Source: Mustelus asterias (lineage: Eukaryota). From it: a stretch of DNA of 64,000 nt. The translations under genes and the position numbers were made by a program. Positions 42,180 to 49,525 of the stretch are shown one piece after another. The stretch's first letter is position 1, and each line of letters opens with the position of its first letter. The stretch is from the NCBI RefSeq assembly GCF_964213995.1, contig NC_135808.1, positions 27,962,001 through 28,026,000 on the forward strand, written 5' to 3'. The notes beneath the pieces were generated by a model. It was not told the DNA's origin. It ran no database searches and saw only the letters and a list, made by a program, of their open reading frames with translations.

Positions 42180-42497
42180 CTTAGAATCTTAGAAACCCTA
42201 CAACACAGAAAGAGGCTATTCAGCCCATCGAGTCTGCGCCGACCACAATCCCACCAGGCCCTACCCACTAATCCTCTAACCTATTCATCCCAGGACCCTG
42301 GGGAAATTTTAGCATGGCCAATCAACCTAACCCGCACATCTTTGGACTGCGAGGAAACCGGAGCACCCGGAGGAAACCCACGCAGACACAAGGAGAATGT
42401 GCAAACTCCACACAGACAGTGAATCAAGCCGGGAATCGAACCCAGGTCCCTGGAGCTGTGAAGCAGCAGTGCTAACCACTGTGCTACCGTGCCGCCC
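42180..42497 (-). mobile_element. HE1-type SINE inside the ERV 5' LTR
   Basis: Full SINE consensus, ending ...gtgctaccgtgccgccc on the plus strand. Confidence 0.9.
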
Positions 42498-42907
42498 TAT
42501 ATCCCACCTAAACCCTCCAATGTTTCACTGGAGCAAGCAGAGAGGGAGTGATTGGAGGCAGGAGTGCTGGTGAGAGATTGACTGAATGATTTATTTATTT
42601 AATTAGTCAGTTCGTGTGTGTTTTTTTTTGGCCTTTACTTTTGTCGTGGTATTTTTCTTAAGTTTAAAGTGAAAACCGGAAGTGGGCTGCTAAGGAGTCT
42701 GGGAAGGGTTTTTTAAGCACGCGAAGTATAAAAGGTAGGTTGCAGTATACAGCGGGCAGAGTCGGGAGCGGGCAGCGGAGTGTGTGGGAAGCAGAGTGTG
42801 AGCTATAAGGGCTTTGGCTCACAGGGCTTGGGGGGACAGGGCGAGCAGGGGTGAGTTTAATTCATTTTTGCTGTTTCTCCCTGGTACTGGCAAGGTATCT
42901 AGAGGGG

Positions 42908-43834
42908 ATGGGTGTGCAGGCAGTGCTATGTTCCTCTTGCACTATGTTTGAGGTGAGGGACTCCGTCAGTGTCCCTGCTGATTACATCTGTGGGAAGTGC
43001 ACCCATCTGCAGCTCCTCCAAAACCGTGTTAGGGAACTGGAGCTGGAGTTAGATGAACTTAGGATCATTAGGGACGCAGAGGTGGCCATAGACAGAAGCT
43101 TTAGGGATACAGTTACTCCGAGGAATGAAAACAGATGGGTGACGGTGAGAGGGGCTGGGAGGAAGCAGTCAGTGCAGGGATCCCCTGTGGTCGTTCTCCT
43201 TAGCAACAAGTATTCCGCTTTGGATACGGTTGAGGGGGACGACGTACCAGTGGTGAGCCGCAGTGAGAGGATCTCCAGCACTGTGTCCGTCTCTGTGGCT
43301 CGGGAGGGTAAGGGGCAGAGCGGGAGGGCAATAGTTATTGGGGACTCGTTAGTTAGAGGGATAGATAGAAAGTTCTGTGGCAGCAAAAGAGACTCACGGA
43401 TGGTATGTTGCCTACTGTGTGCCAGGGTCCGTGATGTCTCGGACCGTGTCTTCCGGATTCTTAAGCGGGAGGAGAAACAGTCACAAGTCGTGGCACACAT
43501 TGGTACCAACGACATGGGTAAGAGAAGGGACGGGGATTTAAAACAGGAATTTCGGGAGCTGGGCTGGAAGCTGAGAGCCAAGACAAAACATGTGGTCATC
43601 TCTGGTACGTTGCCGGTGCCACGTGAGAGCGAGTTGAGGAACAGGGAGAGAGTGCAGTTAAACATGTGGTTGCAGGGATGGTGTAGGAGGGAGGGTTTCA
43701 GATACATGGATAATTGGAACACATTCTGGGGAAGGTGGGACCTGTACAAACAGGACGGGGTGCACCTGAACCAGAGGGGCACCAATATCCTGGGAGGGAA
43801 ATTTGATACAGCTCTTCAGGGGGGTTTAAACTAA
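42908..43834 (+). CDS. CR1 ORF1p (Cys zinc finger, coiled coil, SGNH esterase domain), open
   Basis: CSSC..CGKC, RVRELELELDELR, GDSLVRG, HIGTND and DGVHLN motifs; first ATG at 42908. Confidence 0.85.
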   Translation: MGVQAVLCSSCTMFEVRDSVSVPADYICGKCTHLQLLQNRVRELELELDELRIIRDAEVAIDRSFRDTVTPRNENRWVTVRGAGRKQSVQGSPVVVLLSNKYSALDTVEGDDVPVVSRSERISSTVSVSVAREGKGQSGRAIVIGDSLVRGIDRKFCGSKRDSRMVCCLLCARVRDVSDRVFRILKREEKQSQVVAHIGTNDMGKRRDGDLKQEFRELGWKLRAKTKHVVISGTLPVPRESELRNRERVQLNMWLQGWCRREGFRYMDNWNTFWGRWDLYKQDGVHLNQRGTNILGGKFDTALQGGLN

Positions 43835-43893
43835 TTTGTCTGGGGAGTGGGAAAAGGAGTTGTAGTCCAGAAGTCAGTGAGGGTGGTGAGGTA

Positions 43894-46647
43894 TTGGGGA
43901 AGGTATCAGGGGCAAGGGTGGGTACCGGTAGACAGGAAGGTGGGTTGAAGTGTGTCTACTTCAATGCAAGGAGCATCCGGAACAAGGTAGATGAACTTGG
44001 GGCGTGGATTGGTACTTGGGACTACGATGTTGTGGCCGTTACGGAGACGTGGGTAGAACAAGGACAGGAATGGTTGTTGGACATTCCGGGGTATAGATGT
44101 TTCAGTAAGTGTCGGGAAGCTGGTAAAAGAGGTGGAGGAGTAGCATTGTTAATCAAGGATAGTTTAACGGCTGCGGAAAGGCACTTCGAGGGGGATCTGC
44201 ACACTGAGGTAATATGGGCTGAGGTTAGGAATAGGAAAGGAGCGGTCACGTTGTTAGGAGTTTACTCTAGGCCCCCAAATAGTAATAGAGATGTGGCGGA
44301 AGAAATTGCTAAGCAGATTATGGATATGTGTGGGTGTCACAGGGTAGTTGTTATGGGGGACTTTAACTTTCCAAATATTGATTGGAACCTTTGTAGGTCA
44401 AATAGTTCGGCTGGGGCAGTTTTTGTGCAGTGTGTGCAGGAGGGTTTCCTGACACAATATATGGATAGGCCGACAAGAGGTGAGGCCACATTGGATTTGG
44501 TACAGGGAAATGAACCGGGCCAAGTGATGGAAAGGGATAGGCATGAACCTCGGGCCAGTGGTTTTAGCTGGGGGAAGGGTAATTATGAGGCTATTAGGAG
44601 AGAATTAGGAAACATAGGTTGGACTAGGAGATTACAGGGACTGGGAACGTCCGACATGTGGAGTTTTTTCAAGGAGCAGCTACTGCGAGTCTGTGATAGG
44701 TATGTCCCTGTCAGGCAAGGAGGAATTGGTAGGGCTAGGGAACCGTGGTGCACCAAAAAAGTTTCTTTGTTGGTTAAAAAGAAAAAGGAGGCTTATGTTC
44801 GGATGAGACGTGAGCACTCGGGTAGTGCACTAGAAAGCTTTAGATTGGCTAAGAGGGAGTTGAAGAGCGAGCTTAGAAGGGCTAAAAGGGGACATGAGAA
44901 GACTTTGGCGGATAGGGTTAAAGAGAATCCTAAGGCGTTCTATAGGTATGTCAAGAACAGAAGGTTGGTTAGGGCAAGTTTAGGGCCAGTTATAGATGGC
45001 AGAGGGAAGTTATGTGTGGAACCGGAGGAGATTGGTGAAGCATTGAACCAATATTTCTCTTCGGTGTTCACGCAAGGGGACATGAATATAGCGGAGGAGG
45101 ACACTGGGTTGCAAGGGAGTAGAATAGACAGTATTACAGTTGATAAGGAGGATGTGCAGGATATTCTGGAGGGTCTGAAAATAGATAAATCCCCTGGTCC
45201 GGATGGGATTTATCCAAGGATTCTCTGGGAGGCAAGAGAAGTGATTGCAGAGCCTCTGGCTCTGATCTTCAGGTCGTCGTTGGCCTCTGGTATAGTACCA
45301 GAAGATTGGAGGTTAGCGAATGTTGTCCCATTGTTTAAGAAGGGGAACAGAGACTTCCCCGGGAATTATAGACCGGTGAGTCTCACTTCTGTTGTCGGCA
45401 AGATGTTGGAAAAAATTATAAGGGATAGGATTTATAGTTATTTGGAGAGTAATGAATTGATAGGTGATAGTCAGCATGGTTTTGTGGCAGGTAGGTCGTG
45501 CCTTACTAACCTTATTGAGTTTTTTGAGAAAGTGACCAAGGAGGTGGATGGGGGCAAGGCAGTGGACGTGGTATATATGGATTTTAGTAAGGCGTTTGAT
45601 AAGGTTCACCATGGTAGGCTTCTGCAGAAAATGCAGATGTATGGGATTGGGGGTGATCTAGGAAATTGGATCAGGAATTGGCTAGCGGATAGGAAACAGA
45701 GGGTGGTGGTTGATAGTAAATATTCATCATGGAGTGCGGTTACAAGTGGTGTACCTCAGGGATCTGTTTTGGGGCCACTGCTGTTTGTAATATTTATTAA
45801 TGATCTGGATGAGGGTATAGTTGGGTGGATTAGCAAATTTGCTGATGACACCAAAGTCGGTGGTGTGGTAGACAGTGAGGAAGGGTGTCGTAGTTTGCAG
45901 GAAGACTTAGACAGGTTGCAAAGTTGGGCCGAGAGGTGGCGGATGGAGTTTAATGCGGAGAAGTGTGAGGTAATTCACTTTGGTAGGAATAACAGATGTG
46001 TTGAGTATAGGGCTAACGGGAGGACTTTGAATAGTGTGGAGGAGCAGAGGGATCTAGGTGTATGTGTGCATAGATCCCTGAAAGTTGGGAATCAAGTAGA
46101 TAAGGTTGTTAAGAAGGCATATGGTGTCTTGGCGTTTATTGGTAGGGGGATTGAATTTAGGAGTCGTAGCGTTATGTTGCAACTGTACACAACTCTGGTG
46201 CGGCCGCACTTGGAGTATTGTGTGCAGTTCTGGTCCCCACATTACAGGAAGGATGTGGAGGCTTTGGAGAGGGTGCAGAGGAGGTTTACCAGGATGTTGC
46301 CTGGTATGGAGGGGAGATCCTATGAGGAGAGGCTGAGGGATTTGGGATTGTTTTCGCTGGAAAGGCGGCGGCTAAGAGGGGATCTTATTGAAACATATAA
46401 GATGATTAGAGGTTTAGATAGGGTGGATAGTGATAGCCTTTTTCCTCTGATGGAGAAATCCAGCACGAGGGGGCATGGCTTTAAATTGAGGGGGGGTAGT
46501 TATAGAACCGATGTCAGGGGTAGGTTCTTTACCCAGAGGGTGGTGAGGGATTGGAATGCCCTGCCAGCATCAGTAGTAAATGCGCCTAGTTTGGGGGCGT
46601 TTAAGAGATCCGTAGATAGGTTCATGGACGAAAAGAAATTGGTTTAG
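43894..46647 (+). CDS. CR1 ORF2p-like APE endonuclease plus reverse transcriptase (chimeric, missing the SDH motif)
   Basis: 917-codon open frame with YFNARSIRNK, VTETW, MGDFNF, then the RT motifs NYRPVSLTS, MDFSKAFD, PQGSVLGP and FADD. Confidence 0.85.
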   Translation: MGKVSGARVGTGRQEGGLKCVYFNARSIRNKVDELGAWIGTWDYDVVAVTETWVEQGQEWLLDIPGYRCFSKCREAGKRGGGVALLIKDSLTAAERHFEGDLHTEVIWAEVRNRKGAVTLLGVYSRPPNSNRDVAEEIAKQIMDMCGCHRVVVMGDFNFPNIDWNLCRSNSSAGAVFVQCVQEGFLTQYMDRPTRGEATLDLVQGNEPGQVMERDRHEPRASGFSWGKGNYEAIRRELGNIGWTRRLQGLGTSDMWSFFKEQLLRVCDRYVPVRQGGIGRAREPWCTKKVSLLVKKKKEAYVRMRREHSGSALESFRLAKRELKSELRRAKRGHEKTLADRVKENPKAFYRYVKNRRLVRASLGPVIDGRGKLCVEPEEIGEALNQYFSSVFTQGDMNIAEEDTGLQGSRIDSITVDKEDVQDILEGLKIDKSPGPDGIYPRILWEAREVIAEPLALIFRSSLASGIVPEDWRLANVVPLFKKGNRDFPGNYRPVSLTSVVGKMLEKIIRDRIYSYLESNELIGDSQHGFVAGRSCLTNLIEFFEKVTKEVDGGKAVDVVYMDFSKAFDKVHHGRLLQKMQMYGIGGDLGNWIRNWLADRKQRVVVDSKYSSWSAVTSGVPQGSVLGPLLFVIFINDLDEGIVGWISKFADDTKVGGVVDSEEGCRSLQEDLDRLQSWAERWRMEFNAEKCEVIHFGRNNRCVEYRANGRTLNSVEEQRDLGVCVHRSLKVGNQVDKVVKKAYGVLAFIGRGIEFRSRSVMLQLYTTLVRPHLEYCVQFWSPHYRKDVEALERVQRRFTRMLPGMEGRSYEERLRDLGLFSLERRRLRGDLIETYKMIRGLDRVDSDSLFPLMEKSSTRGHGFKLRGGSYRTDVRGRFFTQRVVRDWNALPASVVNAPSLGAFKRSVDRFMDEKKLV

Positions 46648-49330
46648 GTTGGAGGGTCACAGTTTTTTTTTTTAACTGGTCGGTGCAACATCGTGGGCCG
46701 AAGGGCCTGTTCTGCGCTGTAATGTTCTATGTTCTATGTTCTAAGTGTTCGATTTGGTTGTGGGAGAGCACTTTGGAGATAGTGACCACAATTCGGTGTC
46801 TTTTGTTATTGCAATGGAGAGGGATAGGGCCGTACGGCAGGGCAAGGTTTACAATTGGGGGAGAGGTAATTATGATGCGATTAGGCAAGCATTAGGGGGC
46901 ATAAGTTGGGAACAGAAACTGTCAGGGAAAGGCACTAATGAAAAGTGGAACTTTTTCAAGGAATAAATACTGGGTGTCCTTGATAGGTATGTCCCTGTCA
47001 GGCAGGGAGGAAATGGCCGAGTGAGGGAACCATGGTTCACGAAAGAGATGGAATGTCTTGTGAAAAGGAAGAGGGAAGCTTATGTAGGGATGAGGAAACA
47101 AGGTTCAGATGGCTCGATTTGAGGGTTACAAGTTAGCAAGGAACGAGCTGAAAAAGGGGCTTAGGAGAGCGAGGAGGAGACATGAGAAGTCCTTGGCGGG
47201 TCGGATCAAGGAAAACCCCAAGGCTTTTTACTCTTATGTGAGGAATAAAAGAATGACAAGGGTGAGGTTAGGGCCGGTCAAGGACAGTAGTGGGAACTTG
47301 TGTATGGAGTCAGTAGAGATGGGCGAGGTGATGAATGAATACTTTTCTTCAGTGTTCACCAAGGAGAGGGGCCATGTTTTTGAGGAAGAGAAGGTGTTAC
47401 AGGCTAATAGGCTGGAGGGAATAGATGTTCGGAGGGAGGATGTCCTGGCAGTTTTGAATAAACTGAAGGTCGATAAGTCCCGTGGGCCTGATGAAATATA
47501 TCCTAGCATTCTTTGTGAGGCAAGGGATGAGATTGCATAGCCTTTGGCTTTGATCTTTGGGTCCTCACTGTCCACGGGGAAGGTGCCAGAGGACTGGAGA
47601 ATGGCGAATGTTGTTCCTCTGTTTAAGAAAGGGAATAGAAAGGATCCTGGTAATTATAGACCGGTTAGTCTTACTTCGGTGGTTGGTAAATTGATGGAAA
47701 AGGTCCTTCGGGATGGGATTTACGACCATTTAGAAAGATGCGGATTAATCCGGGATAGTCAGCACGGATTCATGAAGGGCAAGTCGTGCCTCACAAATTT
47801 GATAGAATTTTTTGAGGAGGTAACTAAGTGTGTTGATGAAGGTAGGGCAGTTGATGTCATATACATGGATTTTAGTAAGGCGTTTGATAAGGTTACGGCT
47901 TGTGGTCGGCTTATGATGAAAGTGAGGAGGTGTGGGATAGAGGGAAAGTTGGCCGATTGGATAGGTAACTGGCTGTCTGATCGAAGACAGAGGGTGGTGG
48001 TGGATGGAAAATTTTCGGATTGGAGGCAGGTTGCTCGCGGAGTGCCACAGGGATCAGTGCTTGATCCTCTGCTCTTTGTGATTTTTATTAATGACTTTGA
48101 GGAGGGGGCTGAAGAGTGGATCAGTAAATTTGCTGATGACACCAAGATTGGTGGAGTAGTGGATGAGGTGGAGGGCTGTCGTAAGCTGCAAAGAGACATC
48201 GATAGGATGCAGAGCTGGGCTGAAAGATGGCAAATGGAGCTTAACCCTGATAAATGTGAGGTGATTCATTTTGGTAGGACTAATTTAAATGTGGATTACA
48301 GGGTCAAAGGTAGGGTTCTGAAGACTGTGGAGGAACAGTGAGATCTTGGGGTCCATATCCACAGATCTCTAAGTGGATAGAGCTGTGAAGAAGGCCTATA
48401 GTGTGTTAGCTTTTATTAACGGGGTTGGAGTTTAAGAGCCGTGGGGTTATGCTGCAACAGTACAGGACCTTGGTGAGACCACATTTGGAATATTGTGTGC
48501 AGTTCTGGTCACCTCACTATAAGAAGGATGTGGGAGTGCTGGAAAGAGTGCAGAGGAGATCTACCAGGATGCTGCCTAGTTTGGAGGGTTGGTCTTATGA
48601 GGAAAGGTTGAGGGAGCTAGGGCTGTTCTTTCTGGAGCGGAGGAGGCTGAGGGGAGACTTAATCAAGGTTTATAAAATGATGAAGGGGATAGATAGAGTG
48701 AACGTTCAAAGACTATTTCCTTGGGTGGATGGAGCTATTACAAGGGGGCATAACTATAGGGTTCGTGGTGGGAGATATAGGAAGGATATCAGAGGTAGGT
48801 TCTTTACGCAGAGAGTGGTTGGGGGTGTGGAATGGACTGCCTGCAGTGATAGTGGAGTCAGACACTTTAGGAACATTTAAGCGGTTATTGGATAGGCACA
48901 TGGAGCACACCAGGATGATAGGGAGTAGGATAGCTTGATCTTGGTTTCAGATAAAGCTCGGCACACCATCGTGGGCCGAAGGGCCTGTTCTGTGCTGTAC
49001 TGTTGTCTGTTCTATGTTCTAATATCCCACCTAATCTCGTCAATCAGCCTGGAGGGCTCAATCACAATATTCAACATTGTTACCTGAGCCAATAACGTTC
49101 CACCTGTCAACAGGAATTATTACTTGTTGTTGATGCAGGTTCCTTCCCCTTTACTTAGGAAACCTAACCCACGTCCTTAGCAATATCCAAGGCCATTATT
49201 TACATCTGTGATTTTTAATTGGTGAAAGGAGTCACTCTTTCGCTGGAACCTGGGCCTCCTTTCTCAGCTTGAGAGACTGCTCCAGCGTCGCTACCCATGA
49301 ACGAATTTACTCCCTTAATACTCCGTAAAT

Positions 49331-49525
49331 CAGTCCAAAGATGTGCGGGTTAGGTTGATTGGCCAGGTTAAAAAAAATTGCCCCTTAGAGTCCTGGGATG
49401 TGTAGGTTAGAGGGATTAGCGGGTAAAATATGTGGGGGTAGGGCCTGGGTGGGATTGTGGTCGGTGCAGACTCGATGGGCCGAATGGCCTCCTTCTGCAC
49501 TGTAGGGTTTCTATGATTTCTATGA
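49331..49525 (+). mobile_element. 5'-truncated HE1-type SINE inside the ERV 5' LTR
   Basis: cagtccaaagatgtgcgggttagg...gggtttctatgatttctatg; absent from the 3' LTR. Confidence 0.88.

What the first reader, a model, noticed from the sequence alone, without database searches (positions are those of the whole stretch)
42512..49034. CR1 inserted into another CR1 at almost the homologous codon, creating an in-frame chimeric ORF2 without the endonuclease SDH motif
Seen: the 917-codon ORF reads ...GNEPGQV|MERDR..., skipping 22 residues. Those residues (FDLVVGEHFGDSDHNSVSFVIA, then MERDR) start right after the first poly(TTCTATG) tail at 46748. AAGTG is duplicated at both junctions (44522-44526 and 46743-46747), and the whole composite is bounded by one outer TSD. 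Inference: a younger CR1 of another subfamily inserted into the host CR1, and its 5' truncation point lies only 66 nt from the homologous position, in frame. That coincidence suggests homology-guided 5' joining or template switching. The product is a unit with the host 5' UTR, an open ORF1 and a continuous EN-RT frame, while the host's own 3' half carries several stops. Established: the SDH histidine is catalytic in APE endonucleases, so the fusion should be endonuclease-dead but possibly RT-competent. This is a possible route for LINE subfamily recombination.
Basis: partly seen in the sequence, partly recalled or inferred. Interest (0 to 1): 0.7.

Follow-up and report, generated by a model that had tools for sequence, protein, structure and literature searches.

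The report
Young LINE nested in older relative
A very young jumping gene sits inside an older relative, joined through a four-letter match into a one-off fused reading frame that lacks part of the DNA-cutting enzyme; the near-perfect line-up of the two is likely chance, so this is likely an ordinary dead-end insertion.

Summary
The structure is real. A 2.2-kb 5'-truncated copy of a very young CR1-type family (Y, 0.09% from its majority) sits in a full-length older copy (H, 2.5-3.1%; about 70% like Y). 59 of 59 other H loci run 44526 straight into 46748, so the simple-deletion reading fails. The frame is continuous and lacks the SDH end of the endonuclease. The 5' join is a 4-nt AGTG microhomology 66 nt off register; the in-register site, with far more homology (23/30 vs 7/30), was not used. 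Among 372 other Y insertions, same-strand CR1 targets had 5' ends within 70 nt of register in 2 of 37 (1.6 expected; antisense 2 of 39). Only a 250-nt window hints at excess (10 vs 5.6). About 20 such in-frame joins are expected genome-wide by chance. The junction is single-copy, and 20 of 22 long Y copies have an open ORF2, so a nuclease-dead RT adds little. One exact-register Y-in-H join (L095) shows the recombination intermediate can form; young-3'/old-5' LINE recombination is already proposed for L1. The scan earlier noted a similar nested hybrid in another genome, and the ORF1/ORF2 slippery site seen here many times.

The parts
42499..42511 (+). Outer target-site duplication, left copy (13 bp)
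   Evidence: same 13 letters at 49022-49034
42512..42907 (+). Host (family H) 5' UTR; about 6 extra letters, then the start seen in full-length H copies at about 42518
   Evidence: L069, L073, L078 start with the same motif
42908..43834 (+). Host ORF1, 308 aa, open; zinc-finger-like N-terminus (motif recalled) and GDSL/SGNH esterase domain; 17 residues differ from the H majority
   Evidence: (PF13472 E 6e-11)
43825..43834 (+). T TTA AAC heptamer in ORF1 phase followed by the ORF1 stop; ORF2 lies in the -1 frame; candidate -1 frameshift site
43807..44526 (+). Host part of the ORF2 frame: leader and APE-type endonuclease up to GNEPGQV; the conserved Tyr of YRPP reads Ser here
   Evidence: Tyr in 72 of 77 distinct aligned sequences
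44522..44526 (+). Inner TSD left copy AAGTG; AGTG (44523-44526) is also family Y's own sequence, i.e. a 4-nt 5' microhomology
44527..46743 (+). 5'-truncated insertion of the very young family Y: linker, RT, C-terminus (stop 46645-46647), 3' UTR and (TTCTATG)n tail; 2 mismatches in 2220 nt from the Y majority
   Evidence: (RVT_1 E 4e-36)
46743..46747 (+). Inner TSD right copy AAGTG (first A shared with the tail)
46748..49022 (+). Host 3' half: the 22 skipped codons with the SDH motif, a broken RT (3 stops, 4 frameshifts), 3' UTR and tail; 2.5% from the H majority
49022..49034 (+). Outer target-site duplication, right copy

Best explanation
A recent, 5'-truncated copy of the young CR1-type family Y sits inside an older full-length CR1-type copy (H), likely inserted by ordinary target-primed reverse transcription and likely joined at its 5' end by annealing of a 4-nt AGTG overhang, with the 66-nt in-frame near-register position likely a chance outcome. 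Shown: the nesting, the family assignment, the relative ages, the 5-bp TSD, the 4-nt microhomology, the single copy. Inferred: Y's endonuclease nicked at CC|AAGTG, the tail primed there, the second strand was cut about 5 nt away, and the freed AGTG end caught the cDNA at one of 23 AGTG sites in Y. The product would encode, if transcribed and frameshifted, an ORF1-ORF2 fusion with a dead endonuclease and a normal Y reverse transcriptase. It is predicted to be a non-autonomous dead end.
For: H continuity: 29 of 29 best-scoring other loci and 30 of 30 unselected loci of 6,010 run from 44526-type into 46748-type sequence. Ages: host 5' part 3.1%, host 3' part 2.5% from the H majority; insert 0.09% from the Y majority. 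AGTG precedes ATGGAAAGG in 30 of 30 Y loci. Homology at the register used is 7/30 (exact run 4); at the true register 23/30 (exact run 3), and that site was not used. A 5-nt TSD is the modal one for Y (46 of 262 against 14 in a shuffled control), and 22 of 113 TSD-bearing insertions have 4 or more nt of 5' microhomology. L250 has the same AAGTG TSD and AGTG microhomology at offset -229. Base rate within 70 nt: sense 2 of 37 observed, 1.59 expected; antisense 2 of 39, 1.76 expected; overall rank test sense vs antisense P 0.41. About 20 in-frame near-register joins are expected genome-wide, and about 0.5 within ORF2 of H copies. Short TSDs with annealing-type 5' joins are described for zebrafish ZfL2-1 (PMC4245944, abstract and section 10).
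Against: Within 250 nt, sense targets show 10 of 37 against 5.6 expected (P 0.045; permutation among 29 resolved cases P 0.011), antisense 5 of 39 (Fisher P 0.10); the excess is gone at 400 nt and five window sizes were tried. One exact-register Y-in-H join was found (L095/L362, offset 0), and L450 reads by eye as about -15. All 7 disabling lesions of the host lie 3' of the insert (binomial P 0.026), although the locus was picked for its open frames. The sample is small and would miss a modest bias.
Confidence: 0.8

Rival explanations
1. Homology-biased truncation: as the Y cDNA nears the position homologous to the cut, it pairs with the roughly 70%-identical host strand, which stalls synthesis or holds the ends close, so that a microhomology near the register is used. 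The first reader's idea in a weaker, statistical form.
For: 10 of 37 sense cases within 250 nt against 5.6 expected; correlation of 5' end with target position 0.36 (P 0.055) in sense against -0.01 in antisense; exact-register L095 in an H host. A heteroduplex at the insertion site is one of three models for mosaic L1 families (PMC3600994, passages).
Against: No excess at 20, 70, 100 or 400 nt; overall quantile test flat (mean 0.47 vs 0.49). At this locus the better in-register site was skipped. An exact-register join is also favoured by plain microhomology, because matches are likelier at homologous positions (inference).
Confidence: 0.13
2. The fused frame is kept by selection, or serves as an RT donor or founder of a recombinant family.
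For: ORF1 and the endonuclease part are open while all 7 lesions fall in the 3' half (P 0.026); the 5' UTR is complete.
Against: One copy of the junction. The insert is far younger than the host's decay, so open 5' frames predate the fusion. Synonymous/non-synonymous ratio does not differ between host halves (15/28 vs 15/38, P 0.51). The conserved YRPP Tyr is also lost. 20 of 22 long Y copies have an open ORF2.
Confidence: 0.03
3. Assembly artefact: reads of two CR1 families were stitched together.
For: No contig of four public runs bridges the 5' junction could be shown either way; no long reads were available here.
Against: A TSD with microhomology, an intact tail and one outer TSD are what a true insertion leaves, and match the habits of other Y insertions. 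The families are only about 70% alike, too different to be confused by an assembler (inference).
Confidence: 0.03
4. A single element with a 66-bp deletion followed by an unrelated truncated CR1, or a chimera made by template switching between two RNAs.
For: The frame is continuous across the junction.
Against: The 5' part belongs with 46748-49022 (59 of 59 loci) and is only about 70% like the corresponding Y sequence. An RNA-level chimera would have one tail and no host 3' half behind an inner TSD.
Confidence: 0.01

Closest known systems
5'-truncated LINE insertions with short TSD and annealing-type (microhomology) 5' junction, e.g. zebrafish ZfL2-1 (PMC4245944: abstract and section 10 read; PMC4760211: passages)
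   Same: About 5-bp TSD, 5' truncation, microhomology between target overhang and cDNA.
   Different: Here the target is itself a related LINE on the same strand, so the join happens to produce a continuous coding frame.
Mosaic L1 families of mouse and rat, where a young 3' end recruits an older 5' end (PMC3600994, passages)
   Same: Same polarity: young 3' part fused to an older 5' part with its promoter and ORF1, breakpoint near the 5' end of ORF2.
   Different: Those are amplified, functional families with in-register breakpoints; this is one copy, 66 nt off register, with the endonuclease motif lost and the host 3' half still behind it.
Chimeric L1s formed by recombination of L1 cDNA with a resident L1 (Gilbert et al. 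2005; recalled, only its reference entry was seen in PMC4679865)
   Same: New element lands in a resident homologue and yields a new/old hybrid.
   Different: As recalled, those joins are in register over extended homology and often delete or duplicate target DNA; here the match is 4 nt, off register, with a normal TSD.
Vertebrate CR1 LINEs with esterase ORF1; shark HER-type LINE and HE1-type SINE (names recalled, no library test)
   Same: ORF1 with GDSL/SGNH esterase, APE endonuclease plus RT, 3' microsatellite tail, 3' end shared with a tRNA-like SINE.
   Different: Family names H, Y and Z are mine; no named consensus was available for comparison.

Membership tests
CR1-type LINE (host H and insert Y) | ORF2 with APE-type endonuclease followed by RT | tested here: met
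   PF03372 and PF00078; L1 endonuclease and ExoIII are the top solved relatives of the intact H domain
CR1-type LINE (host H and insert Y) | ORF1 with esterase domain | tested here: met
   PF13472 on the host ORF1; Y ORF1 not scanned
CR1-type LINE (host H and insert Y) | 3' short tandem-repeat tail instead of poly(A) | tested here: met
   (TTCTATG)n on both elements
CR1-type LINE (host H and insert Y) | RT tree placement inside the CR1 clade | not tested
   No named reference LINEs were fetched; the label CR1 rests on architecture and recall
Ordinary TPRT insertion with annealing-type 5' join | Intact 3' tail, 5' truncation and short TSD | tested here: met
   5-nt TSD is modal for Y
Ordinary TPRT insertion with annealing-type 5' join | Microhomology between target end and element at the 5' junction | tested here: met
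   AGTG in 30 of 30 Y loci
Homology-guided cDNA/resident-element chimera | Junction in register, over extended homology | tested here: not met
   66 nt off register; 7/30 at the register used, 23/30 at the unused true register
Homology-guided cDNA/resident-element chimera | Near-register joins enriched over chance among same-strand nested insertions | tested here: inconclusive
   No excess within 100 nt, weak excess within 250 nt, n = 37
RNA template-switch chimera | One insertion: single tail, single TSD, no host remainder | tested here: not met
   Two tails, two TSD pairs, host 3' half retained
Recombinant LINE subfamily | Several dispersed copies sharing the breakpoint | tested here: not met
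   1 exact match of the junction 24-mer in 3.68 Gb; mismatched search not run
Recombinant LINE subfamily | Complete ORF2 catalytic set | tested here: not met
   SDH segment missing; H230A abolishes L1 retrotransposition and destabilises the domain (PMC1950540, passages)

The most novel reading that the evidence does not exclude
When a young CR1 lands in a resident CR1 on the same strand, 65-75% homology with the host pulls the point of 5' truncation towards the homologous position (within a few hundred bases, sometimes exactly). Nested insertion would then be a steady source of old-5'/young-3' hybrids, and this locus, L095 and L450 are frozen intermediates of LINE subfamily recombination; the 80-90% similar 5' UTR start shared by H and Y would be the trace of one such event that succeeded.
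Probability: 0.15. Interest if true: 0.55.

Novelty: new member of a known kind. Interest (0 to 1): 0.2.

Why it matters
As it stands it is a clean but ordinary nested insertion: a good teaching case of microhomology joining, with no sign of function or spread. It would matter if the weak 250-nt excess held up. How mosaic LINE families arise (at the insertion site or by RNA strand switching) is an open question in the L1 literature, and this genome, with about 14,000 near-identical young insertions and an estimated 1,400-2,000 of them in same-strand relatives, makes that question directly countable with an antisense control built in.

Tried and rejected
DNA search with the insert's 5' end found nothing because its words are too common; replaced by an exact pattern. 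A gapped tail-plus-RT-motif pattern to enrich nested insertions could not be run, so the base rate rests on sampling. Two tail patterns also caught a third family (Z); these were removed by a Y-specific anchor from then on. Laying contigs of public runs: no contig bridged the 5' junction and 44505-44519 had no cover in four runs; these runs hold at most 0.67 of the stretch's words, may be other individuals or species, and contigs drop records, so this shows nothing either way. A joint 44525-46751 in one run is most simply another H copy. No confirmed RNA run of this organism was available, so expression is untested. phmmer against solved structures did not align as far as SDH; Pfam coverage was used instead. 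Dropped from the strict offset set: cases with only one CR1-like flank when both were readable, the tandem array L439, the self-duplication L441 and the ambiguous L425 second element; the loose rule (54 sense, 60 antisense) gave the same pattern (3 vs 2.3 expected within 70 nt; 15 vs 7.9 within 250 nt). No stable, shared hairpin was seen 3' of the slippery site in single-sequence folds. Gilbert et al. 2005 was not held. PMC11702581, PMC6466679, PMC4679865, PMC5009743 and PMC11835228 (passages) gave nothing on in-register nested LINEs or CR1 frameshifting. No supplements were read; those of PMC4245944 may hold junction tables that bear on the microhomology comparison.

Full report
1. Observation. 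One stop-to-stop frame runs 43807-46647 and reads GNEPGQV|MERDR; the 22 skipped residues, with SDH, begin at 46748. AAGTG stands at 44522-44526 and 46743-46747, and a 13-bp duplication bounds the whole (42499-42511, 49022-49034). Pfam finds an esterase ORF1, an APE-type endonuclease and an RT. The 917 codons start at a TTG; the frame has no ATG before the middle of the endonuclease.

2. Which piece belongs to which. The window is G000:C8:27962001-28026000 of a 3.68-Gb genome; a shark is my guess from the repeat types (recalled). A search with 44250-44526 gave 30 loci of 40 scored matches. In 29 of 29 loci other than the window, the sequence runs on into 46748-type sequence at about 96%. The same held for 30 of 30 loci taken in order from 6,010 exact matches to the host side of the junction. 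So 42512-44526 plus 46748-49022 is one element of an older family, H. The middle piece belongs to a very young family, Y: 4,308 exact matches at its 5' end, 14,182 at its 3' end. The insert differs from the Y majority at 2 of 2,220 bases; the host halves differ from the H majority by 3.1% and 2.5%.

3. The 5' junction. In 30 of 30 Y loci the letters before ATGGAAAGG are AGTG. Four of the five TSD letters are thus also Y sequence: a 4-nt microhomology. AGTG occurs 23 times in Y, three of them within 100 nt of the homologous position. At the register used, Y and the target end agree at 7 of 30 letters; at the true register, 66 nt further 5', they agree at 23 of 30 and that site was not used. Among 262 resolved, truncated Y insertions, 113 have a TSD of 4 or more (55 in a shuffled control), the excess centring on 5 nt, and 22 of the 113 have 4 or more nt of 5' microhomology. 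L250 has the same AAGTG TSD and AGTG match at offset -229. Short TSDs with annealing-type joins are described for ZfL2-1 (PMC4245944, abstract and section 10; PMC4760211, passages). This junction is typical of its family.

4. Is 66 nt more than chance? I collected 373 distinct Y 3' ends (372 without the window), mapped the target position on Y coordinates when the flanks were CR1, and compared it with the 5' end. The sample is not random: it is the first-listed places on contigs C1 and C2, mostly from tails followed by A or G. The null came from 176 fully fetched insertions. Strict set: 37 same-strand and 39 opposite-strand targets. Observed against expected, same strand: within 20 nt 1 vs 0.46; 70 nt 2 vs 1.59; 100 nt 3 vs 2.27; 250 nt 10 vs 5.64 (P 0.045; permutation among 29 resolved cases P 0.011); 400 nt 11 vs 8.82. 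Opposite strand: 1, 2, 2, 5 and 12 against 0.51, 1.76, 2.51, 6.11 and 9.12. Sense vs antisense: Fisher P 0.47 at 100 nt and 0.10 at 250 nt; rank test P 0.41. Read by eye, L450 lies at about -15 rather than the script's -42, which would make 2 vs 0.46 within 20 nt (P about 0.08, my arithmetic). For this target the chance of landing within 66 nt is about 2.8%, and 0.9% in frame. Scaled up, about 20 in-frame near-register joins are expected in the genome and about 0.5 inside ORF2 of H copies. A scan that reads many windows will meet one. The honest reading: no bias at the scale of this finding, a weak and window-dependent hint at 250 nt.

5. L095 (G000:C1:1483705, minus strand; same as L362) is a 170-nt Y fragment in an H copy joined exactly in register through TAGT, in frame, with a 5-nt TSD. 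It shows that old-5'/young-3' in-register hybrids do form. Plain microhomology also favours such joins, since short matches are likelier at homologous positions (inference). H and Y also share the first 200 nt of their 5' UTR at 80-90% while ORF1 is about 63% and ORF2 about 70% alike, which may record an older 5' exchange; no outgroup test was done.

6. The fused protein. Intact H and Y endonucleases match the Pfam profile to position 225 of 225, the chimera only to 199. In L1, H230A gives no retrotransposition and an unstable domain (PMC1950540, passages); equating the CR1 SDH histidine with H230 is recalled. The host part also has Ser for the Tyr of YRPP, kept in 72 of 77 distinct aligned sequences. 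The Y part is identical to an intact copy over 706 residues. So nuclease-dead and RT-intact is a sound prediction, untested. It has little weight: 20 of 22 long Y copies have an ORF2 of 940 or more codons. The junction 24-mer occurs once; given Y's youth, daughters should match exactly. Host halves show the same synonymous/non-synonymous mix (15/28 vs 15/38, P 0.51). All 7 disabling lesions are 3' of the insert (P 0.026), but the host decayed mostly before the insertion and the locus was chosen for open frames.

7. Comparison with what is known. It works like an ordinary TPRT insertion and meets those tests. It has the polarity of mosaic rodent L1 families, where a young 3' end recruits an older 5' end and a heteroduplex at the insertion site is one proposed cause (PMC3600994, passages), but it fails membership: one copy, off register, catalytic motif lost. 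Chimeras of L1 cDNA with resident L1s in cultured cells are recalled (Gilbert et al. 2005; text not held). Searches listed no paper on near-register CR1-in-CR1 insertions; most subscription papers are outside that library. An earlier scan note (e1-9865307, another genome) reports a similar nested hybrid; I did not see its data.

8. Side result. ORF1 ends in T TTA AAC plus stop (43825-43834) with ORF2 in the -1 frame. Of 12 family-level junction types among my loci, 8 show TTTAAAC or TTTAAAT in place, one has TTTAAAC shifted by a base, one a TTTAAAA run, and two single old copies differ. This points to -1 frameshifting as the way ORF2, and so the chimera, would be made. The scan has noted it at least 38 times; searches did not list a paper on it for CR1.

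9. Verdict. Observation confirmed, interpretation partly supported, new member of a known kind, interest 0.2. The countable question it raises (does homology to the target bias truncation) stays open at about 15%.

Noticed in passing
window 43825-43834: T TTA AAC slippery heptamer in phase before the ORF1 stop, ORF2 in the -1 frame, G-rich run about 10 nt on; kept across most CR1-type families among the fetched loci. Already noted many times by the scan.
   Followed up: partly
L095 / L362 = G000:C1:1483705 (-): 170-nt Y fragment inserted in an H copy exactly in register and in frame, TAGT microhomology, 5-nt TSD: a true in-register old/young hybrid.
   Followed up: yes
L450 = G000:C2:59206500-59211400: Y insertion in an old CR1 about 15 nt from register, with about 25 nt of SINE-like 3' sequence between target and insert, suggesting a template jump at the 5' end.
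   Followed up: partly
L439 = G000:C1:44398500-44408400: Head-to-tail array of at least three near-full-length Y copies, period 3,989 nt, each tail joined to position 59-62 of the next; the first copy has a 321-nt repeated 5' UTR unit.
   Followed up: partly
window 42514-42713 vs L066, L068, L283, L439: The first 200 nt of the H 5' UTR are 80-90% like the Y 5' UTR, well above ORF1 (about 63%) and ORF2 (about 70%): conserved promoter or past 5' exchange between families.
   Followed up: partly
window 46748-46753: The host resumes TTCGAT where 58 of 59 other H loci read TTAGAT; the private change makes TGTTC, which matches the Y tail and may have helped priming or been copied from it.
   Followed up: no
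L106, L153, L061, L441: Short duplications of Y's own sequence just upstream of the 5' junction, typical of re-annealing during 5' joining.
   Followed up: no
L117, L119, L121, L126, L132, L149, L150, L164, L168: A third CR1-type family (Z, copies 91-98% alike) shares the last 55 nt and tail with Y.
   Followed up: no
window 42185-42498 (-) and 49331-49518 (+): tRNA-like SINE copies (HE1-type by recall) flank the composite in opposite orientation and share the 3' motif of the LINEs; the host inserted right at the head of the left one.
   Followed up: no
L071, L072, L074-L077: Several H loci share flanks beyond the element at 98-99.98%, so they lie in larger duplicated segments rather than being independent insertions; this lowers the number of independent loci somewhat.
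   Followed up: no
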